Positions 46,204 to 64,000 are shown, numbered from the stretch's first letter. The stretch: DNA of 64,000 bases from Lachnospiraceae bacterium (GCA_015057585.1 SVEF01000013.1:27054-91053), one strand, 5' to 3'. The notes: generated by a model from the sequence alone, not told the origin. Numbers and translations: made by a program.

Positions 46204-46243
46204 ATCCGGTCAAAACGGAAAATAGAGAATTTTAATTAAAAAG

Positions 46244-46278
46244 GCACTCCGGATTGCTCATTTCGCAATCCGGAGTGT
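46244..46278. terminator. Terminator hairpin after the lipoprotein gene
   Basis: CACTCCGGATTGC-tcatttc-GCAATCCGGAGTG. Confidence 0.5.
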
Positions 46279-46379
46279 AAAATTAAAAATTAAATCCAGA
46301 TATAATAAACTTATTTGTATATAATTTTGCGTAAACTTATTATATGTGTGTTTAATTGGAATCATAGGAGGAAATGACA

Positions 46380-47363: not shown

Positions 47364-47405
47364 GGTTTACCATAAAAATAAGCGATAAGCAGAAAGAGGT
47401 AATTT

Positions 47406-49445: not shown

Positions 49446-49521
49446 ATGTAAGGCGGTGCGGTGCAGCAGGCATCGCGCCGTTTTTTATGTGATATTTTGG
49501 AGAAGAGGAGATACATAAAAG

Positions 49522-50856: not shown

Positions 50857-50873
50857 GAATAAGGGGAAGCAGA

Positions 50874-51107
50874 ATGAAAAACTATACCAAATTGGATATT
50901 GTAAAAGATATCATTTTCTTTTTTATCACAGTAGCGGTGGCATATGGATATATTCTGTTACTGCTTTTGATACTTAGTTTTATGACGAGCAGATATCTTC
51001 CGATGAAGTTTGACGATATGCTGGTATATTCCGGCATAGGGACGTTTATCATCGGAGTCTGGTATATTGTAAAAAAGGTAAAGAAATATCAAAATAAGAC
51101 GGAGTAG
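50874..51107 (+). CDS. Small membrane protein (2 TM helices)
   Basis: ATG with an AAGGGGAAG RBS and two hydrophobic helices. The track ORF begins at 50835. Confidence 0.4.
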   Translation: MKNYTKLDIVKDIIFFFITVAVAYGYILLLLLILSFMTSRYLPMKFDDMLVYSGIGTFIIGVWYIVKKVKKYQNKTE

Positions 51108-52030
51108 TGAAAAGAATGGAAGTAAAAGCAGTGCAAAACAACAGAATCGGATGGCTGGATGCATGGAAAGGGTTTGCAACACTTTTGGTGGTGCTCGGAC
51201 ACATTGCGGATGGATATCTGGATGCAGGGATGTTTCCCGGGTATACGGGAGTCTTACAGACAGGCTATGATATTATTTACTCGTTCCATATGCCGTTGTT
51301 TTTTGTCTTAAGCGGATATGCCTTTTACGTTGCTTATGCAAAAAACAGAGAAGTAAAGAAACGGAGCATGTGGCTGCAGATAGGAAATATTGCCGTGGTT
51401 TATATTCTTTTCAGTGTATTGCAATGGTGCTTTAAGATGGTATTTGCCGGACAGGTGAACACGACATACACATGGAAACATTTATGGATGATTCCGGTAA
51501 GGACCATGGCTCCGTACTGGTATCTGTATGTTTTGGTATTGCTGTATATGGTTACATGGTTTATAGAGCGGGTAAAACAGCCGGAATGGCTGAAAGTGTT
51601 TTTTTTTCTCGGTTTATATTTTTTAAGTGATTTGTTGCCGGATAGTATATTATTTGAAATAAAGAGAACTTTATATTATAGTTTCTTCTTTTATTTTGGA
51701 ATTTATCTTGCAAAAGCAGTGGCACCGGTTTTGGCAGAGAAACTGGAACCGCTCATAAAACATTACCGGAAAATACCGAAACCGGGCGTGCTTCGGTGGA
51801 TTGGCACTTACAGCCTGGAGATTTATGTCACTCATTGTTTTATTACTGCGGCAAACCGGAGGATTTTACCGGCAATCGGTATTACAAACTTCTATTGTAA
51901 TATAGTAACTAATTTTATTATGGCGGTTCTTTTGCCGGTAGCGGCAGCCTGTATATTGAAACATTTACGGTTGCATTCGTGGATTTTCCGACCGGTAACG
52001 TCATTAACAAAACATACCAGTGTAAGGTGA
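51107..52030 (+). CDS. Acyltransferase family 3 membrane protein (OatA-like O-acyltransferase)
   Basis: N-terminal GWLDAWKGFATLLVVLGH motif and about 9 TM helices. Confidence 0.65.
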   Translation: MKRMEVKAVQNNRIGWLDAWKGFATLLVVLGHIADGYLDAGMFPGYTGVLQTGYDIIYSFHMPLFFVLSGYAFYVAYAKNREVKKRSMWLQIGNIAVVYILFSVLQWCFKMVFAGQVNTTYTWKHLWMIPVRTMAPYWYLYVLVLLYMVTWFIERVKQPEWLKVFFFLGLYFLSDLLPDSILFEIKRTLYYSFFFYFGIYLAKAVAPVLAEKLEPLIKHYRKIPKPGVLRWIGTYSLEIYVTHCFITAANRRILPAIGITNFYCNIVTNFIMAVLLPVAAACILKHLRLHSWIFRPVTSLTKHTSVR

Positions 52031-52093
52031 GCAAAACTGCAAATACTACTAGCGTAACATCAAAAACAAATTTTATTTTTGGAGGTAAGAGTT

Positions 52094-52258
52094 ATGTCTA
52101 GAAGTAGAAACAGAGTCGAAGTTCCTGAAGCAAAGAGCGCTATGGATCAGTTCAAGATGGAAGTTGCATCTGAACTCGGTGTGCCTTTAACAAACGGTTA
52201 CAATGGTAACCTTACAAGTGCACAGAACGGTTCTGTCGGCGGCGAGATGTACCGTTAG
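52094..52258 (+). CDS. Small acid-soluble spore protein, alpha/beta type (54 aa; absent from the ORF track)
   Basis: MSRSRNRVEVPEAKSAMDQFKMEVASELGVPLTNGYNGNLTSAQNGSVGGEMYR carries the conserved SASP alpha/beta core (EIASELGV ... TSRQNGSVGGEM). The GGAGGTAAG RBS sits 3 nt upstream. Confidence 0.85.
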   Translation: MSRSRNRVEVPEAKSAMDQFKMEVASELGVPLTNGYNGNLTSAQNGSVGGEMYR

Positions 52259-52364
52259 ATTTAAAAGCCTTTATTTATGCGGTTTGTAGCAGTTTTGTTT
52301 TATGTTTTTACACCAAATTTACACCAATTTTTTAAAAGCGTAAAAGAGTATTGCAACTTCCTAA

Positions 52365-52396
52365 AAGCCTATAATTTTTATAGGCTTATATTTTTT
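52365..52396 (+). terminator. Terminator hairpin at the left edge of the AT-rich island
   Basis: AAGCCTATAA-ttt-TTATAGGCTT followed by ATATTTTTT, immediately preceding motif copy 1. Confidence 0.55.
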
Positions 52397-52397
52397 A

Positions 52398-52434
52398 CTC
52401 ATAAACTTAAACACACAATTATCTAATATATAAG
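52398..52434 (+). repeat. Island motif copy 1 (CTCATAAACTTAAACACACAATTATCTAATATATAAG)
   Basis: Member of a 9-copy family with consensus CAYAnrAMTTAAACAnnnnnnnnATCTAATAnrTAGr. Confidence 0.8.
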
Positions 52435-52471
52435 TCAATGTAGTGTATTTTCATATATGGAAGGTTTTTAC

Positions 52472-53029
52472 ATGAATCGCGCATCTCAATTAAAAAAATT
52501 ACTTCAAGCAAAAGAATCTCTAATCCTTTCTAAAAAATCAGATAACCCGTCCTACAGTAGTAAAGATAAATATCATGCAACTTTAAATAATTTTTTACAT
52601 CAAGAAATTCCCTTTATCCGAGATATTATTGACATTATGAACGTTGCACCAAATAATGGTGACGACTTTAGGAATACTCCATATCAGAGAACGCCTATTT
52701 CAGTCATAAACGAAGCTGGTAGCTTTTTTGTAGGATACCTTGGAAAAGGACATCGGATTGATGAGAAATTTGGATTTGCAGTGGGGTTTGATTTTGAAAC
52801 CTCAAAACCTATCGTTAAGAATTTCATTCGAGATAATCGTTGCAGTTATAAAACCTGTCCTCTCGAAGAGTCTTCTAAAACACTCCAAAAAGATTTGGAA
52901 GACTTTATAGAAATGTTTCAAACTTTTAAAGTCGATTTTTATGCCTGTTATGAAAACTTAATGTTAGCTCTTTCTGATGAAATCGATTTGCTTAAAAATG
53001 AATGTACCCCACCCGTAATGAATGTGTAG
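52472..53029 (+). CDS. Hypothetical protein (island cassette 1)
   Basis: AT-rich ORF. ATG at 52472 with GGAAGG 7 nt upstream; the track ORF begins at 52457. Confidence 0.45.
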   Translation: MNRASQLKKLLQAKESLILSKKSDNPSYSSKDKYHATLNNFLHQEIPFIRDIIDIMNVAPNNGDDFRNTPYQRTPISVINEAGSFFVGYLGKGHRIDEKFGFAVGFDFETSKPIVKNFIRDNRCSYKTCPLEESSKTLQKDLEDFIEMFQTFKVDFYACYENLMLALSDEIDLLKNECTPPVMNV

Positions 53030-53214
53030 CCTTGCCGAATTGTTGAAATACCTGTCGATATAAAATTGTTTACATTTTTCCTTTTGAGTGATACTCTCTA
53101 TATAAGGAAAAAGGAGGCTAATAAACAACAATACCCAGTCGAAAAAATCCCCTTTTGTAGGGGACAGACTCCTAAAGATGAATAACAAAAATGATTATGA
53201 ATTAGGAGGTTATT

Positions 53215-53430
53215 ATGGCTAGAGGTAAAAGAAATCTTCCTTTAGAAACACAGCTAGAACAAATTACTCAAAACATTGCAGCTATGGAGGAAAATTTAGT
53301 AGAATTAAAGAAAGCTAAAAATGAAATTGAAGAACAAATCAGAATGAATCAGTTGGCTGAATTAAATGATTTAATTTCTGAAAAAGGATTGAGTTTTGAA
53401 CAAGTGAAAGAGTTATTAAATAAGGAGTAG
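53215..53430 (+). CDS. Small coiled-coil protein (71 aa)
   Basis: AGGAGG RBS. Heptad-rich (LEQITQNIAAMEENLVELKKAKNEIEEQI). Terminator at 53425-53452. Confidence 0.45.
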   Translation: MARGKRNLPLETQLEQITQNIAAMEENLVELKKAKNEIEEQIRMNQLAELNDLISEKGLSFEQVKELLNKE

Positions 53431-53457
53431 TCCCAAGTGACTACTCTTTTTGTTTTA

Positions 53458-53495
53458 CTCACAGACTTAAACAAAATTCTATCTAATAGATAGAG
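53458..53495 (+). repeat. Island motif copy 2
   Basis: CTCACAGACTTAAACAAAATTCTATCTAATAGATAGAG, directly after the terminator. Confidence 0.8.
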
Positions 53496-53518
53496 ACATA
53501 AAATGCAACTCTGGAATA

Positions 53519-53548
53519 TTAGACAATAAGGTAATTTTATTGTATAAT
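53519..53548 (+). promoter_or_regulatory. Sigma-A-type promoter (TTAGAC, 18 nt spacer, extended -10 TGtATAAT) for the HipA-like gene
   Basis: ttagacaataaggtaattttattgtataat, about 25 nt downstream of motif copy 2. Confidence 0.5.
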
Positions 53549-53594
53549 TGAGTTGTAATCCATTTGAAAACATATATCAACAAGGAGAATGTTT

Positions 53595-54800
53595 ATGAAT
53601 GTAAAAAATTTAACACTCATGATGAAAGATACCCCAGTTTTATCCGTAAATTTAGACGAAGGGGAATATATTGTTCTGAATGAAAACTTGCTTCCTTTTG
53701 ATATGAAAGGCCGATTACGCAAACAACCAGAATTAACCGGGAATGTAAGTTATGACGCAAAACAATTAGCAATTTCCGCTATCAAAAATTATGAACAGTT
53801 ACTTGCTTTTTTATCGCATAGAGTATTACCAATTAGTAGAGAAAACGCAAAAAAAATTTATCAGTTATTTGGGGTAGAACAATTACAGGATGAAGTTTCA
53901 AAAGCTAAAATAGCAATCTTGTGCAGAGCCGTGTCTTTGCAAGATAATTACTGGGTGAAATTAGAAGATGAAAAAATAACTTGGAACGACGTTAATCTTA
54001 GAACAAACAGCCTCAGCGAAATTGTTACTCAAGTCTCCTTGCACGGAAGTTCATTATCCCTATCCGGTATGGTTCATACTCCAGAACTTACTGGACAAGG
54101 AGCTTATGCTAAAGCTTGGATAAGAGAAGAGGATGGATTATATCTACACAAAAGAGGGGCGAATGGTTCTTGGGAATCGAAAATTGAAGTTATGGTTTCA
54201 AATTTATTAGATTTTTGTAATGTCCCACATTTGAAATACGAGTCTTCTTCTTCTGTAGATATACAAACTCAAGAGTCCGTTTATACCTGTAAATGTAAAT
54301 GTATGACTACAGAAGATATTTCCATCCTTTCCGGAATGGATTTTACTTCTTGGTGTAATGTTAGAGGTGTAGACCCTTATAAAGAAGCTTTAAAAATTGA
54401 CCCGGAAATGATATATAAAATGTGGATAGTTGACTATTTGATTTCAAATCGAGATAGACATGGATTAAATTGGGGCTTTTTTTATGATTGTAATACTATG
54501 GAGATTTTAGGATGCCACCCTCTCTACGACCACAATAATGCTTTTGATAATGCCTTGATGTATGATAAAGACGCAACTTATTTATACGACCAAAGGATGA
54601 CTATGAGAGAAGCTGCAAAGCGAGCTATGGAACACGTTGATTTTCACTTTACGAAAGAAATCACCAGAGACGATTTTCTTACCGAAAGACAATATAAATC
54701 TTTTATGGACCGAACCCAAGAGCTTGGTATAAAAATTAAATCATCAATGTCAGAGGCCGAATCAGAAGGAATTGTTCCATCGACATTAACGTTTTCGTAA
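53595..54800 (+). CDS. HipA-like Ser/Thr kinase domain protein
   Basis: C-terminal WIVDYLISNRDRHGLNWGFFYD matches the HipA catalytic loop (D-x-H-x-x-N). ATG at 53595 with AAGGAGA 7 nt upstream. Confidence 0.5.
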   Translation: MNVKNLTLMMKDTPVLSVNLDEGEYIVLNENLLPFDMKGRLRKQPELTGNVSYDAKQLAISAIKNYEQLLAFLSHRVLPISRENAKKIYQLFGVEQLQDEVSKAKIAILCRAVSLQDNYWVKLEDEKITWNDVNLRTNSLSEIVTQVSLHGSSLSLSGMVHTPELTGQGAYAKAWIREEDGLYLHKRGANGSWESKIEVMVSNLLDFCNVPHLKYESSSSVDIQTQESVYTCKCKCMTTEDISILSGMDFTSWCNVRGVDPYKEALKIDPEMIYKMWIVDYLISNRDRHGLNWGFFYDCNTMEILGCHPLYDHNNAFDNALMYDKDATYLYDQRMTMREAAKRAMEHVDFHFTKEITRDDFLTERQYKSFMDRTQELGIKIKSSMSEAESEGIVPSTLTFS

Positions 54801-54820
54801 TAATTTAAGAGGTGTTTATA

Positions 54821-55291
54821 ATGATAGCAGGATTTCGAAATGAATATTATTTTTTAAGTAATTTCTATATTTGCAATATCAATTATAACGGTAAAACTTA
54901 TCAAAGTGCTGAGGCTGCATTTCAAGCTCAAAAGTCATTGGATGAAAATATTCAGTGGCAATTTACCGGATTGTCTCCAAGAGATGCCAGAACCCAAGGA
55001 AAAAGAGTTCCACTCAGACCGGATTGGGAAGAGGTGAAAGAAGACATTATGAAAGAAATTCTTATCATCAAATTCTCCAAGCCGGAATTGAAAGAAAAAT
55101 TACTTGAAACCGGAGATGAGTTTTTAGAAGAAACAAATGGATGGCATGATAACCATTGGGGGAATTGTAACTGTGAACGATGCCGGAATATTCCGGGTAA
55201 AAACATGCTTGGTAATTTATTGATGGATGTTCGTAAGAATTTTCAAGAGGAAATATTCAGGAATGAGAACCCTCCATATATGCAATGTTAA
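54821..55291 (+). CDS. NADAR (YbiA/DUF1768) family protein
   Basis: FLSNFY...YQSAEAAFQAQK...W...HWG pattern. ATG at 54821 with an AAGAGGTG RBS. Confidence 0.6.
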   Translation: MIAGFRNEYYFLSNFYICNINYNGKTYQSAEAAFQAQKSLDENIQWQFTGLSPRDARTQGKRVPLRPDWEEVKEDIMKEILIIKFSKPELKEKLLETGDEFLEETNGWHDNHWGNCNCERCRNIPGKNMLGNLLMDVRKNFQEEIFRNENPPYMQC

Positions 55292-55334
55292 TAAATATTT
55301 TTTTGTAATCATTTTATTTAAAATATTTCTTAAT

Positions 55335-55375
55335 ACACATGAACTTAAACAGAAGGCCATCTAATAAGTAGAAAC
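55335..55375 (+). repeat. Island motif copy 3
   Basis: ACACATGAACTTAAACAGAAGGCCATCTAATAAGTAGAAAC. Confidence 0.8.
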
Positions 55376-55458
55376 TGATATTATTTAAAGAAATGAGCTA
55401 TTACCTCATGTTAAAAGAAATTATGTTTGGCAACTGCACCTAAAGGAGAATATGTTTT

Positions 55459-55878
55459 ATGAAAAGTTCGCCTGTTATTCTTGACAATATGGTCTATTAC
55501 AATGGAGCAGAACAATATAAAAACGAAAAATGGGTATTCTTTTCAAACTATCCCCACAGTCATAGTGTTGAAACCGACATTACAATTATACATTCCGGTT
55601 TGATTTGTAGAGTCAATCCCACAACTACTGACCGATTTGGAAAGACTTTACCGGATAACTTTGCGGTAGAACTTCCTGCCGACCTTGGATTGTATGAACA
55701 ATCAGATGCTGTCAACAAAAAATTCGATTTGTGTACTGAACTCAGAGAAGAGTATGAAAAACGATTTTACGAACAAGGTATTGTCCCTGAAGGGTATTTT
55801 AGTTGGGAAAGACCTTGTTATCTTGGATGTGAAAAAGAATATGGTTTAAAAAAGCCGGAAAAAACCAACAAAGCGTAA
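55459..55878 (+). CDS. Hypothetical protein (139 aa)
   Basis: AAAGGAGAA RBS 8 nt upstream. No recognisable domain. Confidence 0.4.
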   Translation: MKSSPVILDNMVYYNGAEQYKNEKWVFFSNYPHSHSVETDITIIHSGLICRVNPTTTDRFGKTLPDNFAVELPADLGLYEQSDAVNKKFDLCTELREEYEKRFYEQGIVPEGYFSWERPCYLGCEKEYGLKKPEKTNKA

Positions 55879-55901
55879 TCACAAATGCAGGAGTTTGTCT
55901 T

Positions 55902-57326
55902 ATGAATAAACACGATTTGGTCTATGAAAAAATGCGAGGAGCATACATTAACCTAATGAACTATCACTCTTATAGTGTTCAAGAATTATATCTAACTTTA
56001 GAAAAAATTTTTGACGAATGTTATAAACAAGGTCTTGTGAAAGAAGGCTACGAGTTTATTTGCGATGTAGGGTGCAATGTAGCGTTACGATTTGTGTTTT
56101 ATAAGGATATTACCGAACTTTATTCGACAAATCTTAAACAAAAAGACGAACCCGAGGGCTGTCTTGTATCGAGGGATATGCCTTTACGCTATGCGGCAAA
56201 TAAAGAAACTTCTACACTTCTTGGGTACGAAAGAGCTCTTAAAGATATGGGGTTACATATAGCAAAAACGGCCGAACGGTCATTTTTTGTAGCATTAAAC
56301 AAATTAAAACCCGGAGTTGTTGTTGCTTTTACGGAAGGCAAAATGTATGTTTGCCGTGAAAATAAAGACTTAAAAATAACACTAGACCGTGTTTTTGACG
56401 GGGACATTAAAAATATCAACCCATCTGCATTCGTTAAAACAGAAACCATTGAATTGGATTTAACGGACTCTATTAGCGTTCAGCGATTTTACAATCAAAA
56501 TGCCAAAAATCTCACATGGTCTTGTGAAGTAGAGTACGCTGTTCTTAGTGACTGTATCAAAGAACTGGAAGGTTTGAAACGAGGAATTTCTCGATTCCAA
56601 TCAAAAGCTTTTCAAGTTGGACCGGTATCGTTCGTCGGGAAAAAATCTGTTTGGTCTAATCATGTAAAATGGTATGACAATACCGGTGCTCAAATTACAG
56701 ATGAACAACTTTCTTACCTAATCGGATTGCTTCATACACAACCAATTACAACAAAATATATCAGAAAAGAGCCGACATTCGAGAAGATTGCTTCTGATGA
56801 AGAATTTCGATTAAAAATCGAACGTTTACTAGACGACAAACAATATGACCTTGCATATCAAGAAATGTTAAAATATTCAAAAACACATACAAACGATTTA
56901 ATCATAAAAACAGATGGCTTTTTAAGAAATAATAAGAACGAATATATTGCCGGGTCTATTGTTTTTAGAGATGGACAAGCATTTCAACTATCTTATGAAG
57001 ATAACGATTTATCTAAAGATGTTGTAAAAACGTCTGAATTAAATAAATCGGATTTTATCGCACTTTGTCAATGTAAATATACCGAAACTTATGAACGGGT
57101 TTTTGCTAAAGCTGCAGAAGAAATTGAAAAAGAATATCATTTAAAATTAGAAGATATGACGGCAACGCAAAAACGAATTGTTAAGCAACAAGTAGAAAAA
57201 GAAATGGATAAAACCTCTGGCATTATATTAAAAAAAGAAAACATAATGTCAGGAACGACTGATGCTTCCGACATTATAAACGAAATGTCAGAAGACAACT
57301 CCATCAATATTTTGTTACAACGTTGA
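55902..57326 (+). CDS. Hypothetical protein (474 aa)
   Basis: Long AT-rich ORF with a GCAGGAG RBS. No recognisable domain. Confidence 0.4.
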   Translation: MNKHDLVYEKMRGAYINLMNYHSYSVQELYLTLEKIFDECYKQGLVKEGYEFICDVGCNVALRFVFYKDITELYSTNLKQKDEPEGCLVSRDMPLRYAANKETSTLLGYERALKDMGLHIAKTAERSFFVALNKLKPGVVVAFTEGKMYVCRENKDLKITLDRVFDGDIKNINPSAFVKTETIELDLTDSISVQRFYNQNAKNLTWSCEVEYAVLSDCIKELEGLKRGISRFQSKAFQVGPVSFVGKKSVWSNHVKWYDNTGAQITDEQLSYLIGLLHTQPITTKYIRKEPTFEKIASDEEFRLKIERLLDDKQYDLAYQEMLKYSKTHTNDLIIKTDGFLRNNKNEYIAGSIVFRDGQAFQLSYEDNDLSKDVVKTSELNKSDFIALCQCKYTETYERVFAKAAEEIEKEYHLKLEDMTATQKRIVKQQVEKEMDKTSGIILKKENIMSGTTDASDIINEMSEDNSINILLQR

Positions 57327-57344
57327 TAGAAAGGATATTTTTTA

Positions 57345-57872
57345 ATGACAGCTTCTTTTTATATTTCTTTTATTTTAGTCGCACTTGTTATTGCTACTTT
57401 ATTTGCAATTTATAGCGGCTATAAAACATCAGTAATAAAAAATAGAAACAACTATATATACATTACTTCTCCACTTATTGAACTATTCGGCCCTTTTGAT
57501 AAGGATATCTGTAATTATTGCTTGTATTTTGTAGATGCTGAATATATTCAAATTGAACACGATGATGAATATTTTTATAAGTCTGTAGAAAAAAATAGAG
57601 AATCACTAACTCAGTGTATTTTAGGATATCAGCAGATTTATGAACGATTAAAATCTGGAGAAACGATGGAACACTTATTTTATGACCCGGATTTATCTCA
57701 AATTGCTCACTCTTGTTTTGACGTCGGACCGAGAATCTTTGGAACCGTTATTAACAACAAAATTGTATTAAATAATGGCCGACATCGTTATGTTATTGCC
57801 AAAGAACTGGGAATAAAATTACCTGTATATATAGCGTCCGAGACGGTAATTAATATTGATTTAAACAAATAA
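57345..57872 (+). CDS. Membrane-anchored protein with a ParB/Srx-like nuclease-fold domain
   Basis: N-terminal TM helix. C-terminal LNNGRHRYVIAKELGIKLPVYI resembles the ParB N-terminal DGxHR motif. Confidence 0.4.
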   Translation: MTASFYISFILVALVIATLFAIYSGYKTSVIKNRNNYIYITSPLIELFGPFDKDICNYCLYFVDAEYIQIEHDDEYFYKSVEKNRESLTQCILGYQQIYERLKSGETMEHLFYDPDLSQIAHSCFDVGPRIFGTVINNKIVLNNGRHRYVIAKELGIKLPVYIASETVINIDLNK

Positions 57873-57936
57873 ACAACCACATAAAAACAAATGACAAAGA
57901 GGGTATTCATAGATACTCTCTTTTTTTTTGTTTGTT

Positions 57937-57974
57937 TCACACAGAATTAAACATATTTTTAACTAATATATAAA
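57937..57974 (+). repeat. Island motif copy 4
   Basis: CACACAGAATTAAACATATTTTTAACTAATATATAAAT, directly after the terminator at 57897-57929. Confidence 0.75.
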
Positions 57975-58035
57975 TAAAGACTATACAAAAGAACGAAGGA
58001 AGGGGAGATTACTCCCCTATTCCCCTCAATAAAAC

Positions 58036-58239
58036 TCAAAATAACGACAATATCGTTAAGCCTGTACTGACAGCGGCTCCGGACAACATGACATTACAGA
58101 ATCGTTTGGCTCTGGAAATTAGTTCGTTTCGTTGGACGAAAATTCCCACCAGAAACACAAATAAACTCAACATAGCCAGAAAAACAAATACTCCGGCAGC
58201 AAACAAAAATATAAATGTAGTTGACTTCATCCTTATCAC
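58036..58239 (-). CDS. Small hydrophobic protein (two TM helices) on the opposite strand
   Basis: AAAGGAGGTGATAAGG RBS on the minus strand. Hairpin AGGGGAGATTACTCCCCT at 57998-58015 acts as its terminator. Confidence 0.45.
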   Translation of the reverse strand: MIRMKSTTFIFLFAAGVFVFLAMLSLFVFLVGIFVQRNELISRAKRFCNVMLSGAAVSTGLTILSLF

Positions 58240-58334
58240 CTCCTTTAAAATAATTATCTGTTCAGAAGCTAGGTCTAAGTCAAGCTGATTTTTTTTATTT
58301 TTTTAGTTGTATTTTTAATAAATAAAATTCTATT

Positions 58335-58372
58335 ACACATAGAATTAAACAGATTTTTAACCAATATGTAGG
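58335..58372 (+). repeat. Island motif copy 5 (diverged 3' half)
   Basis: ACACATAGAATTAAACAGATTTTTAACCAATATGTAGG. Confidence 0.7.
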
Positions 58373-58490
58373 TAAACACAACTTGTTGTCAATCTTTACA
58401 AATTTTAATAATTTTATATTTTTCGACTTATAATACGTAGGAATATAGTCTCGTTTTGTCTGACATTTTAATAAAAGTATGTGTTTTTTA

Positions 58491-58519
58491 TTGACATATT
58501 GAATAATATGATTTATAAT
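58491..58519 (+). promoter_or_regulatory. Consensus sigma-A promoter TTGACA, 17 nt spacer, TATAAT
   Basis: ttgacatattgaataatatgatttataat, which lies inside the track ORF 58481.. and implies the true start is downstream. Confidence 0.55.
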
Positions 58520-58585
58520 GAAACCTGCACTATTATGGATTTTTGTGTCCTATTGGTGACAACACACAAATGGAGAAAATTTAAG

Positions 58586-59080
58586 ATGAATTCAAAAGAT
58601 GATTTTGAGCGATATTCAAGCCTGTATTACTATCAATTATACAAAAGTGCTTATGCTCACAAAAAATTTATATACGGCGCTATCACAACCATAGTAATTC
58701 TTGGAGCACTCGTTCCTTTTGCGGCCCAATTCATTTTGCCGTTTTTCTTTCCTGAATGTAAAATTGCCGGGGCAGAAATTTGGAACCAATATGTAAGTAT
58801 TGTGTTGGGAGTTGTTGCTACTTTAATGAGTATCATATCATTAAAGCTTAGTTTTGACAATATGACCCAATCTTTTGAATCTGAACGAAGAACACGAGAG
58901 TTATTCGCAAAATTAGAAGGACACTTAATTGATATTGAACATAATCAAAACAACTTATTAACAAAAACAGATATTATGTCTCTTTTGAAAAATGGATATC
59001 ATTTTGAAGAAGAGAATGATATAATTTCCCAATGGAACTCACCAAAAGCAACAAGTAAGAGTGAAAGCAATGATATTTAG
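58586..59080 (+). CDS. Hypothetical membrane protein (164 aa, 2 TM helices)
   Basis: ATG at 58586 with a TGGAGAAAAT RBS, downstream of the promoter. Confidence 0.45.
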   Translation: MNSKDDFERYSSLYYYQLYKSAYAHKKFIYGAITTIVILGALVPFAAQFILPFFFPECKIAGAEIWNQYVSIVLGVVATLMSIISLKLSFDNMTQSFESERRTRELFAKLEGHLIDIEHNQNNLLTKTDIMSLLKNGYHFEEENDIISQWNSPKATSKSESNDI

Positions 59081-59094
59081 GAGGTTATGATTTT

Positions 59095-59601
59095 ATGTGT
59101 GTGCAAAATGTAAATGCAACGATTTCATTATTTTCAGACGTAAGAAATGCAGAAGTTCAAGGAGCTCAAGAATTCATAAGACCATTTGATATCATTGTTT
59201 CAAAAACAATCAATGACAACAAATATATTGGAGGTTTTTATATAGTAATAGATATTGTATTATTATCTACCACAAATGAAGGAAAAAAAGAAGACAATGT
59301 TGTTTATAACAAACAAAAAATAGATGTTATTGTTAGATTGACAAAATCTAGTAAAGACTTTCAAAAAAGATTATCTTCAGATATAGATGAATTTACAATA
59401 GATACCTCTAATGAAAACATTATAAAAAGAAATGCATGTGTTGAATATGTTGGATATAAGAAAATTAAAAAAATTGATATTGATGGGATTAAATTAAGTC
59501 CAGAAGCAGGAACAGGAGATTATATTTTCAAAGTATTAGTAAAACGACCATGTGATAACGAGTACCAAGTACAATCTGTTTATAATTTACGAATAGAATA
59601 A
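59095..59601 (+). CDS. Hypothetical protein (168 aa)
   Basis: AGGAGG RBS. Terminator hairpin at 59626-59657. Confidence 0.4.
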   Translation: MCVQNVNATISLFSDVRNAEVQGAQEFIRPFDIIVSKTINDNKYIGGFYIVIDIVLLSTTNEGKKEDNVVYNKQKIDVIVRLTKSSKDFQKRLSSDIDEFTIDTSNENIIKRNACVEYVGYKKIKKIDIDGIKLSPEAGTGDYIFKVLVKRPCDNEYQVQSVYNLRIE

Positions 59602-59921
59602 TAATGAAAAAAAAGAGAGTCAGGGAAATAAATTCCCCGACTCTTTTTATATTATAAATATTGTTTTAATCAATCCACTTAAGGGTTCCATAATGGCTAT
59701 AACTATTGTTGTTGATGTCATTTAAATAAGACGCCTTTATTATAGGCGTCTTTTTTATTCTACCAAAAAAAATGTAAAAACTATCTAAAAGTGTCGTATG
59801 GTGTCGTGTTTTATAATTTGTATTTTTTGCCAGATTCCTTTAACATATAATAGTTACGTTTGGTTATATATGTTGAGGAACTTTTATATTGCTCTTTTTT
59901 TTGTTGTCCTAATAACACCAA

Positions 59922-59961
59922 ACACATGAACTTAAACATAATATTATTTAATATATAGAAA
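59922..59961 (+). repeat. Island motif copy 6 (5' half conserved, 3' half diverged)
   Basis: ACACATGAACTTAAACATAATATTATTTAATATATAGAAA. Sits in tandem with copy 7, 30 nt downstream. Confidence 0.65.
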
Positions 59962-59991
59962 TGAAAGCCAAAATTCTTTCTATTTTTAATT

Positions 59992-60031
59992 ACACATAAA
60001 CTTAAACAGAGAGTTATCTAATAAGTAGAAC
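59992..60031 (+). repeat. Island motif copy 7
   Basis: ACACATAAACTTAAACAGAGAGTTATCTAATAAGTAGAAC, followed by an extended -10 TGGTATACT at 60071-60079. Confidence 0.8.
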
Positions 60032-60107
60032 AAATAATTAAAACGACCAGTATACGAAAACGACAAAATATGGTATACTGAATAAAGATTTGAAAGGAGA
60101 ATACCCT

Positions 60108-61631
60108 ATGAAGAATTTTATTAAAGCACATACAAAATTATGGATTGGTTGTATCGTGGGTGGTATTGCAGTTATAGGAATTATGCTTTTCGTGGTTCCT
60201 CAATTTGTGGAGCAGCCTGATGTAACTCCTACGCCAACTATAGCTCCAACTAATACACAGGCTCCAACAGTAACTATAGAGCCTACAACCGAACCGACTT
60301 CTGAACCAACTGTAAATCCAACAAACACTATAACACCTACAGAAATTCCTGTGGTAACTGTAGAGCCAACTGTAGAACCAACTAAGGCTCCTACCAACAC
60401 ACCTATAGTAACCCCAACATTCACTCCGGTTCCTACACCAACGTTGAGTCCTACTCCGAGTCCTACACCTTTTATTCCTCCTACACCAGTACCTACAAAC
60501 ACACCGACTCCTACACCGAGTCCTACACCTACTAATACTCCTACTCCTACTGTTACTAATACTCCTACACCAAGTCCTACTAATACTCCTACACCAACAC
60601 CAACAGTAGTACCAAGCACATTACGTGCAAATGTACAGATGGGCGATAATGTATATTTTAAATACTATGATGATGGAACATTAGTAGTTACCGGTACGGG
60701 TAGTACATGGGATTTTGCAAACAACGATGATATGTTAAATGTTTTTAGCAAAAACTCTGGTATTGATAAAACTTCTCTTGTGAAAAACAATTACTTAATG
60801 AAAGAAACAACCGTGATTATCATCAATGAGGGAGTTACTCGAATTGGCGATTGTGTTTTTATTACAAACTATCAAAATACAACAGACGTTTATTTACCTA
60901 GTTCTCTCAAATCTGTTGGAAAGTATGGTTTCTACAGAGTTGGTTACATTTATAAAAATACAACTTGGCATAATCTCAATCTTGATAAATTAACATTTAT
61001 GGACACTTCTTTCGGTAAAACCAATGCACTTGATGGTTATACAAAGGAAGAAATTGAAAAAGTTCAGGTAACACCAACACCTACACCAAGTCCAACGGTA
61101 ACACCTACTCCAAACCCGGCAAAACCAAGAGAAATCTTTGTTGTAAAGGGTAGTAGCGAAATAGTAATGACCTATATTGACAACGGAACTTTAGTAGTTA
61201 CCGGTACGGGGACTTTAAATGAATGTTTGAATTTCACTCGTTATTGTCAGCGAAATAATATTCCTCTTACATCTGAAGTGTTAAAGCATTTAGTAATTGA
61301 AGAAGGATTTACTGATTTATATGAAATGTGTCTTGATTATACACATTATAGTGGTCTCCCGGTACTTTTCGAAACAATTACTCTACCAAAGTCTTTAACC
61401 AAAGTGTACAATAGAAAAGACCATTCTTCTTATGGAGCTGGTGGTCAATATTGTGGTTGCATTAAAGTTGGTGGAAAGTTAATTGCTTATGATAAAAATG
61501 GCAATAAATTTCAATTTACTGTAACAAAACTGCCATCAGAAAAACATTATGGAGCTATTGTTCATGAAATTTTCAACTGGCTTAATGATGGAACTTATAG
61601 TCAATACGGTACGCTTAAGTGGATTGATTAA
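60108..61631 (+). CDS. Membrane-anchored surface protein: N-terminal TM helix, ~150-aa Pro/Thr-rich linker and two BspA-like leucine-rich-repeat-type domains
   Basis: PTPTPSPTPTNTPTPT linkers. Domains have the pattern TVIIINEGVTRIGDCVFITNYQNTTDVYLPSSLKSVGKYGF. ATG at 60108 with an AAAGGAGAA RBS. Confidence 0.5.
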   Translation: MKNFIKAHTKLWIGCIVGGIAVIGIMLFVVPQFVEQPDVTPTPTIAPTNTQAPTVTIEPTTEPTSEPTVNPTNTITPTEIPVVTVEPTVEPTKAPTNTPIVTPTFTPVPTPTLSPTPSPTPFIPPTPVPTNTPTPTPSPTPTNTPTPTVTNTPTPSPTNTPTPTPTVVPSTLRANVQMGDNVYFKYYDDGTLVVTGTGSTWDFANNDDMLNVFSKNSGIDKTSLVKNNYLMKETTVIIINEGVTRIGDCVFITNYQNTTDVYLPSSLKSVGKYGFYRVGYIYKNTTWHNLNLDKLTFMDTSFGKTNALDGYTKEEIEKVQVTPTPTPSPTVTPTPNPAKPREIFVVKGSSEIVMTYIDNGTLVVTGTGTLNECLNFTRYCQRNNIPLTSEVLKHLVIEEGFTDLYEMCLDYTHYSGLPVLFETITLPKSLTKVYNRKDHSSYGAGGQYCGCIKVGGKLIAYDKNGNKFQFTVTKLPSEKHYGAIVHEIFNWLNDGTYSQYGTLKWID

Positions 61632-61701
61632 CAACCAAATAAACTTTCCTTTTATAGAGGGAATAGAGAAGGTAGGATTTTTATATCCTACCTTTTTTTC
61701 T

Positions 61702-61740
61702 TCACATAAAATTAAACAGACAGTCATCTAATATATAGGG
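61702..61740 (+). repeat. Island motif copy 8
   Basis: TCACATAAAATTAAACAGACAGTCATCTAATATATAGGG, directly after the terminator at 61670-61700. The downstream reading frame is open from the last base of the motif. Confidence 0.8.
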
Positions 61741-63666
61741 CTTACTTTTGCCTCAGCTCCGGCTACCGGAACTTTAACTCAATCTGTAACAGTTCAACTG
61801 ACTATCGTAAGTCAAGAATATAAAGTTTCTTTAGATGCAAATAACGGAAAAAATAATGCAAATTATGACTCAGACGGCCCGTTTTCTGTGTTTTATAAAG
61901 AAACCACCAACAATAATATTTCTCAGTACACTCCATCAAGAACAGGATATATCTTTTCCGGATGGATGAATTCAATAAATGACAATGACGGTGTGTATGT
62001 TTATGACAAAAATGGCATCTTTGTTAATAATACAGGCTATTGGACAAATGACATATGGACTGCATTAAGCGGAGCCATGCTTTATGCACAATGGTCTCCT
62101 AGAACTTATCTTGTCACGTTCGATGCAAATGGTGGTATTTGTGCGGAACAAACCAAAAGTGTAACTTTTGAAGCAACTTATGGTACACTTCCTACACCAA
62201 CAAGAACAGGATATGTTTTTTCAGGATGGTATACTGCAAAAACAGGTGGAACTCTTGTTACAAGTTCTACAACTGTTTCAACAGCTTCAGACCACACTTT
62301 GTATGCACAGTGGACCCCATCTCCATATACGGTTTCTTTAGACCAGCAGGGTGGTTGGAATGGAACTATTAGCGTTATTGCGGATTACGAACAACCTATG
62401 CCAACTCCAATTACGTTGCCGGAAAAACAATTTACTGTTACTTTTGATGGAACCGGAGGTACTCCGGAGGTTCCTTCGTTACAAGCTGTTTGTACATTTT
62501 TAGGATATTTTGCATCAAGAGGTGGCGTCGGAACTCAGTATTACACAAGTACAGGAGCTTCTGCCCATATTTGGGATGTACCTCAAAATTCAACAATATA
62601 TGCAAACTGGCAAACCTCAGAAATTGTTTTACCAAATGCATCTCGAGATGGATATTCGTTTTCCGGATGGTTTTCTGATAGAGTTAATACCGACTTTATT
62701 GGAAATGCCGGAGAATATTATCAGGTAAATGATAATACAACTCTTTATGCATCGTGGACCGCAAACACATATAATGTCTTTTTTGACGCAAATACAGGAT
62801 ATTGTTATTTAGAAAAAAAAGAAGTTTTATATGACGACCGTTATGGCGAACTTCCTTTAGCAACCGTTAGAAAAGACGGAACATTCTTCGACGTTGATGG
62901 AGAATGGGTAAGACCTCAAGATTCAATCCTTTATGCTCACTGGTCGGCTAATACTTACATCGTTGGCGGTATGGACCTTGACGACACGCTTACTTCCAGA
63001 GATGAAATCAATGCAAAGATGGTTATTGTGCTTGATGAAGCAACAGACCAGTGGGGTATTAAAGTAACTCGTGTAGAAATCAAAAACATTATGCCTCCTC
63101 GTGATATTCAGGAAGCGATGGACAAGCAGATGAAAGCAGAACGCGAAAAGAGACAAACCTTACTGGAAGCTCAGGCACACAGAGAAGCTTCTGTAACAAG
63201 AGCAGAAGGTGACAAACAAGCAGCAATTCTTAAAGCCGAAGCGGAAAGAGATGCGGCTATTGCAAGAGCTACCGGTGAAGCAGAAAGTATTAGACTCGTT
63301 TACGAAGCCGAAGCGAATGGTCTTAAGTTGCTCGCAGAAGCCGGTGTAAATGAAACGGTACTTGCTTTAAAGAAAGTAGAAGCCTTAAAAGAACTCGGTC
63401 ATGGACAGGCAACCAAGATTGTGGTTCCTACAGAAATTGCAAGTTTAGCAGCAGATATGACGATTAAGGGAGAGCTTCTTGACATTGCGGATAAAGCAAA
63501 CATCACTCCAGAAATTCCAATCGTACAAAATCAGGACGATTGTTGTGATGACGACAATCGCACCACAACAACAAAAGATTTAAAAGAACAACAGAAACAA
63601 AACTTCAAATCTATGTCAAAAGAAGAGCGAACAGAACTTTTGGATAAAGTACTACATCGTAAGTAA
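61732..63666 (+). pseudogene. Chimeric, 5'-truncated ORF: Listeria-Bacteroides (Flg_new-type) surface repeats without start codon or signal peptide, fused in frame at about 62950 to the C-terminal half of an SPFH/band-7 domain protein
   Basis: The frame is open from 61732 with no ATG/GTG/TTG until the GTG at 61888. Repeats show YxVxFDANGG...GYxFSGW...LYAxW. From GGMDLDDTLTSRDEINAKMVIVLDEATDQWGIKVTRVEIKNI...AEREKR the sequence is a stomatin/HflK-like SPFH C-terminus. GC rises at the junction. Confidence 0.5.
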
Positions 63667-63673
63667 TTGACAA

Positions 63674-63704
63674 AACCCCCTCTAACATGAGGGGGCTTTT
63701 TTTT
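63674..63704 (+). terminator. Rho-independent terminator
   Basis: CCCCCTC-taacat-GAGGGGG followed by CTTTTTTTT. Confidence 0.7.
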
Positions 63705-63705
63705 A

Positions 63706-63744
63706 CTCATAAAATTAAACAAATTTTTATCTAATAGATAGATA
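63706..63744 (+). repeat. Island motif copy 9
   Basis: CTCATAAAATTAAACAAATTTTTATCTAATAGATAGATA, about 40 nt upstream of the next ATG. Confidence 0.8.
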
Positions 63745-63784
63745 CCTAATTACAAGAAATTTCAAACAGTATAGGAAAAATAAT

Positions 63785-64000
63785 ATGGAAAAGTGCGGTG
63801 TTTTTTTAGCAAGAATGCAACCGGTTCATAATGCTCATCTACATATGGTACGAAGAGCTCTAAAAGAATGTGATAAAGTTTTAGTTGTCCTTACGGAATA
63901 CAAAACAAAGCTTAACGAACTCCATGATTTAATCAAAGAAAATCCCTTTCGTAGAGGATATGAAGCAAATGTAAATTATGGTAAAGGCTATTATAAGCTT
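63785..64000 (+). CDS. Nucleotidyltransferase of the NadM/NMN-adenylyltransferase-like cytidylyltransferase family, N-terminal part (continues beyond the window)
   Basis: GVFLARMQPVHNAHLHMVRRALKECDKVLVVL matches the G-R-F-Q-P-x-H-x-G-H (H/T)xGH motif region of the archaeal-type NMNAT/cytidylyltransferase fold. AGGAAAAA RBS. Confidence 0.45.
   Translation, partial: MEKCGVFLARMQPVHNAHLHMVRRALKECDKVLVVLTEYKTKLNELHDLIKENPFRRGYEANVNYGKGYYKL

What the first reader, a model, noticed from the sequence alone, without database searches (positions are those of the whole stretch)
54821..64000. Two NAD/ADP-ribose-metabolism genes in the island: NADAR and a NadM/NMNAT-like nucleotidyltransferase
The NADAR protein is a YbiA-like family linked to ADP-ribose and N-glycoside processing. 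The partial gene at 63785 carries the GRFQPxHxGH-type signature (ARMQPVHNAH) of archaeal-type NMN adenylyltransferase-like enzymes. Both lie in an accessory island next to toxin-like genes (the HipA-like kinase and the ParB-like nuclease). The pairing could indicate an NAD+ or ADP-ribose salvage or repair function. Such functions are associated with countering NAD-depleting or ADP-ribosylating toxin and defence systems. This is a hypothesis built from domain assignments only.
Basis: inference. Interest (0 to 1): 0.55.

Follow-up and report, generated by a model that had tools for sequence, protein, structure and literature searches.

The report
Orphan NADAR gene, dead NMNAT remnant
A low-GC island in a Lachnospiraceae genome carries one intact ADP-ribose-removing (NADAR) gene, but the supposed NAD-synthesis partner is only a 36-codon stump fused to another gene, so no two-gene NAD/ADP-ribose module exists here.

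Summary
The gene at 54821-55291 is a bona fide NADAR protein. It matches Pfam NADAR at E=1e-23, keeps the catalytic Glu/Glu/Asp, and is the second gene of an operon behind a HipA/CtkA-fold kinase.

The "partial NadM/NMNAT gene" at 63785 does start with a NadM-type HxGH N-terminus. However, homology at both DNA and protein level stops at codon 36 (window 63893). From there the open frame continues as the N-terminus of an unrelated small-protein family (MTVKEYKE...). It is a deletion remnant, not a gene cut by the window end.

The remnant lies in a 2.15-kb strain-specific mosaic (61739-63893) that most metagenome copies of the island lack. It is 8.5 kb and several transcription units away from NADAR. 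A working NAD+/ADP-ribose salvage pair in this window is therefore not supported.

The association is real at the level of the element family. One related contig has an intact NadM-like gene, Macro+YAcAr, an ART-like gene, NADAR and HipA-like kinases together. Two others have NADAR overlapping a DUF3990 (ART-clan) gene.

The most likely role here is a stand-alone ("orphan") de-ADP-ribosylating antidote. This is an ordinary member of a known kind. The one unexplained extra is a 34-nt box repeated 9 times, only in the island.

The parts
53595..54800 (+). HipA/CtkA-family Ser/Thr kinase-like gene (401 aa), first gene of the operon that contains NADAR
   Evidence: Pfam HipA_C and HipA_2 hits are below the gathering score. 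PADLOC PDC-M03A hits at E=3.6e-11. An AF2 model from a 46-sequence alignment has pLDDT 81.7. The Foldseek PDB top hits are CtkA, HipA and HipT, probability 1.0. The catalytic-loop residues D287, R288, H289, N292 and the residues D312 and K173 are invariant in 46 homologues.
54821..55291 (+). NADAR (YbiA-type) N-glycosidase / ADP-ribosyl-base hydrolase gene, 156 aa, intact
   Evidence: Pfam NADAR hits at E=9.8e-24, above the cut-off, and phrog_1017 at E=7.7e-40. E31, E104 and D110 are invariant in 42 homologues. They align to the catalytic E43, E125 and D130 of P. nicotianae NADAR (PMC11543638). There is a 20-nt gap after the kinase stop codon, an RBS and no terminator.
53460..53493 (+). Copy of the 34-nt box that heads the kinase-NADAR operon. 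The other copies are at 52400, 55338, 57940, 58338, 59925, 59995, 61705 and 63708.
   Evidence: The pattern CAYRRAMTTAAACA-N7-AWYYAATADRTAR gives 9 matches, all on the + strand and all in 52.4-63.7 kb, against 0 expected. A terminator-like hairpin lies at 53422-53449 just upstream, and a sigma-70-like TAGACA-17-TATAAT lies at 53520-53548 just downstream.
61739..63893 (+). Strain-specific mosaic segment (variant B). It is flanked by assembly-graph branch points and built from gene fragments.
   Evidence: The window is 100% identical to L001-L003 up to 61738 and unrelated after that. Eight contigs carry this segment. The k=31 contig spans 61709-63919 and the contigs I infer to be k~127 span about 61612-64017. 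This places the branch points at 61738 and at about 63890.
61739..63666 (+). Chimeric ORF: a 5'-truncated Flg_new-repeat surface-protein fragment fused in frame to the C-terminal half of an SPFH/Band_7 protein. The junction is near 62950-62965.
   Evidence: Pfam Flg_new hits at E=9e-31. Band_7 matches profile positions 102-175 of 176 only. The frame is open from the first base after the junction at 61738.
63676..63695 (+). Terminator-like hairpin after the chimeric ORF, followed by box copy 63708-63741
63785..63892 (+). Remnant of a NadM-type NMN-adenylyltransferase-like gene: 36 codons that include the HxGH motif
   Evidence: TIGR00125 scores 31.2 bits against a cut-off of 27.7, and the NMNAT models hit only residues 3-47. 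The remnant is 84-88% identical to L030 and L019 over residues 5-36, and homology ends at 63893. The full-length relative L030:1192-1839 (215 aa) matches NadM 2QJO at E=4.8e-12 over residues 4-166.
63893..64000 (+). 5' part of an unrelated gene (MTVKEYKE... family, function unknown) fused in frame to the remnant; it runs off the window
   Evidence: Residues 36-71 of the ORF match residues 3-38 of P0247 (76% identity, E=2.5e-8) and P0260 (58%, E=1.7e-5). Only this frame is open in 63894-64016.

Best explanation
The window holds one working NAD/ADP-ribose-related gene, not two.

Shown: the gene at 54821-55291 encodes an intact YbiA-type NADAR enzyme. It lies in a low-GC block of cassette-like, same-strand transcription units in a Lachnospiraceae genome.

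Inferred from a 20-nt gap and the absence of a terminator: NADAR is co-transcribed with a HipA/CtkA-fold kinase.

Inferred from family biochemistry: NADARs of several subfamilies hydrolyse the N-glycosidic bond between ADP-ribose and guanine in DNA. This one keeps the catalytic Glu31, Glu104 and Asp110. Its nearest relatives (63-68% identity) are either overlapped by a DUF3990 gene of the ADP-ribosyltransferase clan, or sit beside Macro+YAcAr and an ART-like gene.

No ART gene is present here. I therefore read this NADAR as a stand-alone ('orphan') antidote. It would strip ADP-ribose from nucleic-acid bases modified by ART toxins of competing elements, defence systems or neighbours.

The ORF at 63785 is the 36-codon stump of a NadM-like nucleotidyltransferase. 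A deletion joined it in frame to about codon 4 of the next gene. It cannot make NAD+, because the rest of the Rossmann fold and the SxTxxR motif are gone. The stump sits in a 2.15-kb mosaic of gene fragments that only some strains carry.
For: NADAR identity and active site: with residue roles taken from PMC11543638 and PMC11125620.

Operon layout.

Kinase fold.

Nearest NADAR contexts:
- L029 and L035 have NADAR overlapping DUF3990. DUF3990 belongs to the Pfam ART clan (PMC7955679) and occurs as an Rhs toxin tip (PMC4524185).
- L030 has Macro+YAcAr, an ART-PolyVal/AcrIF11-like gene, a NadM-like gene and HipA-like genes.

No ART in the island.

Phage and orphan NADARs that neutralise DarT1: PMC11825919. 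A YbiA-type NADAR acting as antitoxin of the ART toxin YarT: PMC11125620.

Remnant status of the nucleotidyltransferase.

Assembly-graph branch points at 61738 and about 63890, seen in five independent assemblies with two k-mer sizes.

Absence of the remnant from variant A.
Against: - No enzyme assay exists for this clade, and in vivo specificity of NADARs is narrow and unpredictable (PMC11125620).
- The Glu-type active site is shared with housekeeping YbiA, and the TIGR02464 score (67.1) is only just under its cut-off of 73.7.
- No cognate ART target is identified.
- The island's mobility is not demonstrated. No integrase was seen in the island by ORF listing and Pfam scans. No tRNA gene was found. 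No empty site was found.
- The sequence downstream of 64016 could not be obtained. The fused ORF is therefore incomplete, and a function for the chimera cannot be excluded.
Confidence: 0.6

Rival explanations
1. One reading: NADAR and an NMNAT-like enzyme work together in this island as an NAD+/ADP-ribose salvage or repair pair that counters NAD-depleting or ADP-ribosylating systems.
For: The N-terminus at 63785 is NadM-type. A relative of the island (L030) carries an intact NadM-like gene 5 kb from a 63%-identical NADAR, together with Macro+YAcAr and an ART-like gene. NADAR/NadM/NadV neighbourhoods in phages are described in PMC9503650. Both transcription units here are preceded by the same 34-nt box.
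Against: Only 36 codons of the nucleotidyltransferase remain. The two genes are 8.5 kb apart in separate units. The remnant is absent from the majority variant. No Nampt/NadV, Nudix or Adps-type gene is in the island.
Confidence: 0.05
2. The HipA-like kinase and NADAR form a dedicated two-gene module. This could be a toxin-antidote pair or a defence system in which the two activities are mechanistically coupled.
For: The two genes are adjacent and probably co-transcribed. HipA-family genes lie within 2 kb of the NADAR gene in 3 of the 4 contexts of this NADAR clade: the window, L029 and L030. HipA kinases (DS-6/HipAD) and a NADAR protein family (DS-32) have each been validated in anti-phage defence (PMC13092281; NCBIfam NF053876). 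The kinase also hits the PADLOC candidate PDC-M03A.
Against: Order and spacing are not conserved. There are 0 genes between the two in the window, 2 in L030 and 4 in L029. L035 has no HipA gene in the 3.9 kb downstream. Three contexts of 63-73% identical kinases (L023-L028) have no NADAR. The match to DS32_2 is far below its cut-off, 52 against 240 bits. No biochemical link between Ser/Thr phosphorylation and N-glycoside hydrolysis is known.
Confidence: 0.15
3. The NADAR gene is a housekeeping YbiA-type N-glycosidase that removes reactive riboflavin-pathway intermediates.
For: It has the YbiA-type glutamate (E104) rather than Asp or His. TIGR02464 hits at E=2e-18, only 6.6 bits below its cut-off. 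The island's left part is fixed in every contig sampled.
Against: The gene lies in a block about 12 points lower in G+C. There are no rib genes in the window neighbourhood. No homologue above 43% identity exists in 185,579 species-representative genomes. The best profile hit is a phage family, and 719 phage records encode relatives. The nearest relatives are paired with ART-clan genes.
Confidence: 0.12
4. The ORF at 63785 is an intact but mosaic or divergent NMNAT whose middle part simply no longer resembles known members.
For: The reading frame stays open for at least 77 codons. An 'NPF' tripeptide occurs 20 residues after the break. A few tblastn alignments to phage NadM genes stretch to residues 63-75 at E=2e-5 to 2e-3.
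Against: The tail matches the extreme N-terminus of a different protein family at 58-76% identity. The conserved 'GS' after strand 2 is missing. Profile alignments end at residues 36-47. Assembly graphs branch at that very point.
Confidence: 0.03

Closest known systems
Stand-alone and phage 'orphan antitoxin' NADARs (AdfN; Johannesman et al. 2025, PMC11825919) and the YbiA-YarT pair (Cihlova et al. 2024, PMC11125620)
   Same: It is a single-domain NADAR of about 150 aa without an N-terminal extension. It keeps the catalytic residues and is carried in horizontally acquired DNA without a cognate ART next to it. Its close relatives are paired with a small ART-clan gene, as in YbiA-YarT.
   Different: It has Glu (YbiA-type) where T4 AdfN has His and DarG1-type NADARs have Asp. 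The partner in relatives is DUF3990, not DarT1 or YarT. The clade has a nearly invariant CxCxxC insert (C116, C118, C121) that E. coli YbiA lacks. The host is a Lachnospiraceae chromosome, not a phage genome. No activity has been tested.
E. coli YbiA / TIGR02464 riboflavin-intermediate N-glycosidase
   Same: It has the same fold family (2B3W, E=3.9e-16) and the same Glu-type active site.
   Different: It scores below the TIGR02464 cut-off. It has no riboflavin or LexA-operon synteny. It sits in a low-GC island, and its nearest relatives lie in conflict-type neighbourhoods.
NadM-type NMN adenylyltransferase (Synechocystis slr0787 2QJO; Francisella NadM 2QJT) and phage NAD+ reconstitution genes (NadM/NadV neighbourhoods, PMC9503650)
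   Same: The first 36 residues carry the GxFxPxHxxH-type motif. They are 84-88% identical to a 215-aa NadM-like protein family that has both the HxGH and SATKIR motifs.
   Different: Only the stump is present in the window, and there is no Nudix domain and no NadV. Even the intact relatives score below every curated NMNAT cut-off, so their substrate is unproven.
HipA / CtkA / HipT kinases
   Same: The predicted fold matches and the catalytic loop is invariant in the NADAR's operon partner.
   Different: No HipB- or HipS-like partner is present. The sequence is below the Pfam gathering scores. The family has an invariant CxCxC motif (C232, C234, C236).

Membership tests
NADAR superfamily (Pfam PF08719) | Profile match above the curated gathering score | tested here: met
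   84.9 bits against a cut-off of 35.1, covering residues 10-144 of the 159-aa ORF from 54812.
NADAR superfamily | Catalytic residues equivalent to P. nicotianae E43, E125, D130 and W133 | tested here: met
   E31, E104, D110 and W113 align to them. E31, E104 and D110 are invariant in 42 homologues. Residue roles come from PMC11543638.
YbiA subfamily of NADAR | Glutamate (not Asp or His) in the last strand | tested here: met
   E104 sits in 'FLEETNGWHDNHWG'. The criterion comes from PMC11125620.
Riboflavin-pathway YbiA (TIGR02464 equivalog domain) | Score above the curated cut-off, and riboflavin or housekeeping synteny | tested here: not met
   67.1 bits against a cut-off of 73.7. There are no rib genes nearby, and the gene lies in a low-GC island.
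DarT1-associated NADAR (DarG1, BC4488 family) | Asp at the last-strand position, an N-terminal extension and an adjacent DarT1 gene | tested here: not met
   The position holds Glu. The protein begins directly at the YbiA core. No DarT/DUF4433 hit was found in the island ORFs.
T4 gp30.3 / AdfN-T4 type phage NADAR (PF08010) | His at the last-strand position and a PF08010 match | tested here: not met
   The position holds Glu. Only PF08719 was reported for this protein, although some 50-55% identical homologues carry PF08010.
DS-32 NADAR anti-phage protein (NCBIfam NF053876) | Equivalog score above cut-off | tested here: not met
   52.2 bits against a cut-off of 240.
NadM / archaeal-type NMN adenylyltransferase | N-terminal (H/T)xGH nucleotide-binding motif | tested here: met
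   The motif reads ARMQPVHNAH. TIGR00125 scores 31.2 bits against a cut-off of 27.7, and the best specific partial hits are NMNAT models.
NadM / archaeal-type NMN adenylyltransferase | Complete Rossmann-like domain of about 160-170 aa with the second SxTxxR motif | tested here: not met
   Homology ends at residue 36. The motif (SATKIR) is present in the intact relative L030:1192-1839 but is absent from the part of the window ORF that is available.
NadM / archaeal-type NMN adenylyltransferase | Score above the curated family cut-off (NF002243, TIGR01527, NF0037xx) | tested here: not met
   The window fragment scores at most 26.6 bits. Even the intact relative reaches only 73 bits against cut-offs of 127-449.
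Phage NAD+ reconstitution / salvage module (NadM or Nmnat with NadV/Nampt, Nudix) | Presence of the partner phosphoribosyltransferase and/or a Nudix domain | tested here: not met
   No such Pfam or NCBIfam hit was found in any island ORF.
HipA-family kinase (operon partner) | HipA/CtkA kinase fold with the catalytic DxHxxN loop and a Mg-binding Asp | tested here: met
   The Foldseek top hits are CtkA, HipA and HipT, probability 1.0. D287, H289, N292 and D312 are invariant. Pfam scores (21.8 and 20.5 bits) are below the gathering scores.
   There is no Pfam hit even at E<=10. The single-sequence AF2 model has pLDDT 42.9, so the fold test is inconclusive.

The most novel reading that the evidence does not exclude
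The 34-nt boxes, often sitting just after a variable hairpin, may be the functional boundaries of a previously undescribed cassette system in Lachnospiraceae islands. They could be recombination substrates or targets of a dedicated regulator. Such a system would shuffle conflict genes (NADAR, HipA-like kinases, NadM-like, ART-clan toxins). Within it, the kinase-NADAR operon would be a new coupled kinase/de-ADP-ribosylase module rather than two independent cargo genes.
Probability: 0.1. Interest if true: 0.6.

Novelty: new member of a known kind. Interest (0 to 1): 0.27.

Why it matters
As found, it matters little. It adds one more stand-alone NADAR in acquired DNA and corrects an over-reading of a truncated gene.

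It is still a useful caution. An HxGH motif at a window edge looked like a cut-off gene, but it is a deletion stump fused to a neighbour.

There are two modest leads:
- A NADAR clade whose members are repeatedly overlapped by DUF3990 (ART-clan) genes. This would be a third NADAR-ART toxin-antidote family after DarT1-NADAR and YarT-YbiA, if tested.
- An island-specific 34-nt box array of unknown role.

Tried and rejected
Getting the downstream gene:
- Exact-protein look-ups show that all 8 contigs carrying this variant end at 63919-64017.
- Exact DNA scans for the tail sequence found nothing in metagenome contigs or viral contigs.
- The source genome is not among the GTDB representatives with this NADAR; the best hit is 43% identical.

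Looking for the island or box family elsewhere:
- The box pattern is absent from IMG/VR and from metagenome contigs. At this information content, zero there is about what chance predicts.
- Rfam has no match in the island.
- Phage and plasmid collections hold only homologues of the kinase below 30% identity.
- The nearest phage NADAR (Phass-1, 51% identity) has an uninformative neighbourhood.

Empty-site test for the island: the SASP look-up returned only island-bearing contigs.

Other tests that led nowhere:
- A search for a hidden ART in the island found nothing. It used a YHG[ST]-type motif scan and BLASTP with the ART-like proteins of L029 and L030.
- ParB-like claim: no HMM hit, and the single-sequence AF2 model was unusable.
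- Reading the box as a sigma-70 promoter fails. TTAAAC to TAATAT is only 11 nt apart, and better sigma-70-like sites lie downstream of some boxes.
- By eye the box gave no convincing match to sporulation-sigma or ECF consensus sequences. This is my own comparison, not a tool result.
Full report
**Setting**

The window has about 45% G+C and a strong positive GC skew up to about 52 kb. That stretch holds GH43 glycosidases, an acyltransferase and a SASP gene at 52094-52258. G+C then drops to 29-37% for the remaining 12 kb.

NCBI names the identical kinase and NADAR proteins as coming from a Lachnospiraceae MAG.

All clear genes in the low-GC block are on the + strand. No tRNA gene is present, and no integrase was seen in the ORF listing and Pfam scans.

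**The NADAR gene**

ORF 54821-55291 has an RBS 6 nt upstream. Its profile and structure-database matches are:

| Library / target | Result |
|---|---|
| Pfam NADAR (PF08719) | 84.9 bits, cut-off 35.1 |
| phrog_1017 | E=7.7e-40 |
| E. coli YbiA (2B3W) | E=3.9e-16 |
| P. nicotianae NADAR (8BAU) | E=5.9e-9 |

The 8BAU alignment places E31, E104, D110 and W113 of this protein on the residues that Schuller et al. (PMC11543638) describe as contacting ADP-ribose. Those residues are E43, E125, D130 and W133. E31, E104 and D110 are invariant in an alignment with 41 homologues.

The glutamate at position 104 puts the protein in the YbiA subfamily. DarT1-linked NADARs have Asp at that position and T4 gp30.3-type NADARs have His (criterion from PMC11125620).

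It is not a housekeeping YbiA by the available tests:
- TIGR02464 scores 67.1 bits against a cut-off of 73.7.
- There is no riboflavin synteny.
- No homologue above 43% identity exists in 185,579 species-representative genomes.
- 719 phage records encode relatives at 44-51% identity.

The stop codon of the upstream 401-aa gene is 20 nt before the NADAR start, with no terminator between them. The two genes therefore probably form one transcript.

That upstream protein is a HipA/CtkA-type kinase:
- Its Pfam scores are sub-threshold.
- A model built from 46 sequences has pLDDT 81.7.
- The best PDB matches of that model are CtkA, HipA and HipT, probability 1.0.
- The catalytic loop D287-R-H-x-x-N292 and D312 are invariant.

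**The 'NadM/NMNAT-like' gene**

The ORF at 63785 begins MEKCGVFLARMQPVHNAHLHMVRRALKECDKVLVVL. This stretch is nucleotidyltransferase-like. TIGR00125 scores above its cut-off, and the best specific partial hits are NMNAT models rather than TagD or CoaD.

It is 84-88% identical over residues 5-36 to genes in L019 and L030. The L030 gene is full length at 215 aa. It has both the HxGH and SATKIR motifs, and it matches NadM of Synechocystis (2QJO) over residues 4-166 at E=4.8e-12.

In the window the similarity stops dead after codon 36. Five lines of evidence show this:
- At the DNA level the alignment to L019 ends at 63893.
- The homologues continue 'GSENK..LRNPYD', whereas the window has 'TEYKTKLNELHD'.
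- In an exhaustive HMMER search of 1.84 billion representative proteins, all 49 nucleotidyltransferase hits cover only residues 1 to about 45. The two remaining hits, P0247 and P0260, align residues 36-71 of the query to their own residues 3-38 (MTVKEYKE.L..LH..IK.NPFRR.Y...).
- Only this frame is open downstream of the break.
- Independent assemblies branch at this position. A k=31 Logan contig spans 61709-63919. Four contigs that I infer to be about k=127 span about 61612 to 64002-64017. In both cases the contigs extend roughly one k-mer into shared sequence on either side of 61738 and of about 63890.

The ORF is therefore a 36-codon stump of a NadM-like gene fused in frame to about codon 4 of an unrelated gene of unknown function. 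It cannot be an adenylyltransferase.

**A rearranged, strain-specific segment**

The window is 100% identical to metagenome contigs L001-L003 from 44821 to 61738 and unrelated to them afterwards.

The majority form (variant A) continues with genes of 165, 191, 113 and 210 aa. These are followed by a 1096-aa Flg_new protein, a 523-aa Cys-rich protein, two acetyltransferases and UvrD. It is still at 33-35% G+C 10 kb further on. It contains no NadM-like or MTVKEYKE-like sequence in that stretch.

The window's form (variant B) is seen in 8 contigs. It has a 2.15-kb mosaic instead, made up of:
- a 5'-truncated Flg_new gene whose frame is open from the first base after the junction;
- the C-terminal half of an SPFH/Band_7 gene, fused in frame to it (profile positions 102-175 of 176);
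- a terminator;
- the stump.

The two 'NAD/ADP-ribose genes' are thus 8.5 kb apart, in different transcription units. One of them exists only as a fragment in a minority variant.

**What the relatives show**

The closest NADAR homologues have informative neighbours.

| Locus | NADAR identity | Neighbourhood |
|---|---|---|
| L029 | 68% | NADAR gene overlapped by a DUF3990 gene (E=5e-32); HipA_C kinase 1.6 kb downstream; a 1961-aa Flg_new protein |
| L035 | 63% | NADAR gene overlapped by a DUF3990 gene (split into two ORFs, E=3e-14 and 2e-11); MNT-HEPN pair |
| L030 | 63% | Intact NadM-like gene, YopX, ART-PolyVal/AcrIF11-like protein, Macro+YAcAr fusion next to NADAR, a kinase 51.5% identical to the window's, and a second HipA_C kinase |

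DUF3990 belongs to the Pfam ART clan (PMC7955679). It also occurs as an Rhs toxin tip (PMC4524185).

This matches known themes. Macro, SLOG and NADAR co-occur in phages, and NADAR lies near NadM/NadV (PMC9503650). NADAR acts as antidote of ART toxins in DarT1-NADAR (PMC11543638) and YarT-YbiA (PMC11125620). Phages carry orphan NADARs as counter-defence (PMC11825919).

By contrast, three contexts of 63-73% identical kinases contain no NADAR. The kinase-NADAR link is therefore recurrent (3 of 4 NADAR contexts) but loose.

The window's island contains no ART-like gene, so its NADAR is an orphan relative to its clade's usual partner.

**Mechanism proposed**

Shown:
- an intact NADAR with catalytic residues;
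- the operon layout;
- the fold of the kinase;
- the truncation and fusion of the nucleotidyltransferase;
- the structural polymorphism of the island.

Inferred:
- The NADAR hydrolyses ADP-ribosyl-nucleobase linkages, with guanine N2 in ssDNA as the family's demonstrated substrate.
- It protects the host or element against ART toxins made elsewhere.
- The stump is functionless as an enzyme, although its promoter region, RBS and first 36 codons now head the neighbouring gene.

I put about 0.6 on this package. It combines about 0.9 that no functional NMNAT is present with about 0.55 on the antidote role.

**Unexplained extra**

A 34-nt box, CAYRRAMTTAAACA-N7-AWYYAATADRTAR, occurs 9 times. All copies are on the + strand, all lie between 52.4 and 63.7 kb, and none lies in the other 52 kb (0 expected by chance).

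- Seven of the 13 aligned copies, which include copies in L002, L029 and L030, sit 10-16 nt after a hairpin plus T-run.
- Each copy precedes a gene or operon by 38-214 nt.
- Two pairs of copies have no + strand gene between them.
- The A/B breakpoint is the last base of one copy (61738). The simplest explanation is homologous recombination between copies.
- The box is not a clean sigma-70 promoter, and better sigma-70-like sites lie downstream of some copies.
- Outside this species it was found only in the loci holding the closest NADAR relatives.
- It was not found in IMG/VR or the metagenome collection or in Rfam.

**Verdict**

The result is an ordinary stand-alone NADAR in acquired DNA plus a pseudogene-like stump.

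Noticed in passing
window 52400-52433, 53460-53493, 55338-55371, 57940-57973, 58338-58371, 59925-59958, 59995-60028, 61705-61738, 63708-63741: A 34-nt box (CAYRRAMTTAAACA-N7-AWYYAATADRTAR) occurs 9 times, only on the + strand and only in the low-GC island. It usually lies 10-16 nt after a terminator-like hairpin and ahead of each gene or operon. It also occurs in L002, L029 and L030. Its role (promoter, operator or recombination substrate) is unknown.
   Followed up: partly
window 61739-63666: Chimeric ORF: a 5'-truncated Flg_new-repeat protein is fused in frame to the C-terminal half of an SPFH/Band_7 protein. The frame opens at the first base after the variant A/B breakpoint, which is the last base of a box copy.
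   Followed up: partly
window 61738 onward, compared with L001-L003: There are two structural variants of the island in metagenomes. The majority form has four small genes (one with a retropepsin-like DTGA motif, one with an HExxH motif), a 1096-aa Flg_new protein and a 523-aa Cys-rich protein. The window has a 2.15-kb mosaic there instead.
   Followed up: partly
window 55166-55183 (NADAR residues C116, C118, C121): This NADAR clade has a nearly invariant CxCxxC insert next to the active-site WHDNxWG segment. E. coli YbiA lacks it. It may be a small metal-binding knuckle.
   Followed up: no
window 54288-54302 (kinase residues C232, C234, C236): An invariant CxCxC motif is present in all 46 aligned members of this HipA-like kinase family.
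   Followed up: no
L029:7001-8285 and L035:1513-2710: NADAR genes 63-68% identical to the window's are overlapped at their 3' end by DUF3990 (ART-clan) genes. This is a candidate NADAR-ART toxin-antidote family not covered by the DarT1-NADAR and YarT-YbiA papers I read.
   Followed up: partly
window 59666-59702 (-) versus 61595-61631 (+): A 37-nt inverted repeat is 86% complementary. The last codons of the 507-aa LRR_5/PT-rich surface-protein gene recur in reverse orientation about 400 nt upstream of that gene's start, next to a minus-strand terminator at 59644-59616. It looks like the 3' remnant of an inverted paralogue.
   Followed up: no
window 58586-59080: A 164-aa two-TM protein has weak DUF4231 and SLATT_4 similarity (E=0.005 and 0.15). 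It is followed by a 168-aa protein with no profile hit. This might be a conflict-system membrane effector, but the hits are below threshold.
   Followed up: no
It has no ParBc or any other Pfam hit even at E<=10.
   Followed up: yes
L018:73-2296: A NadM-like homologue (P0002, frameshifted in a Logan assembly) lies next to a 499-aa ThyX-domain gene, a phage-like nucleotide-metabolism context.
   Followed up: no
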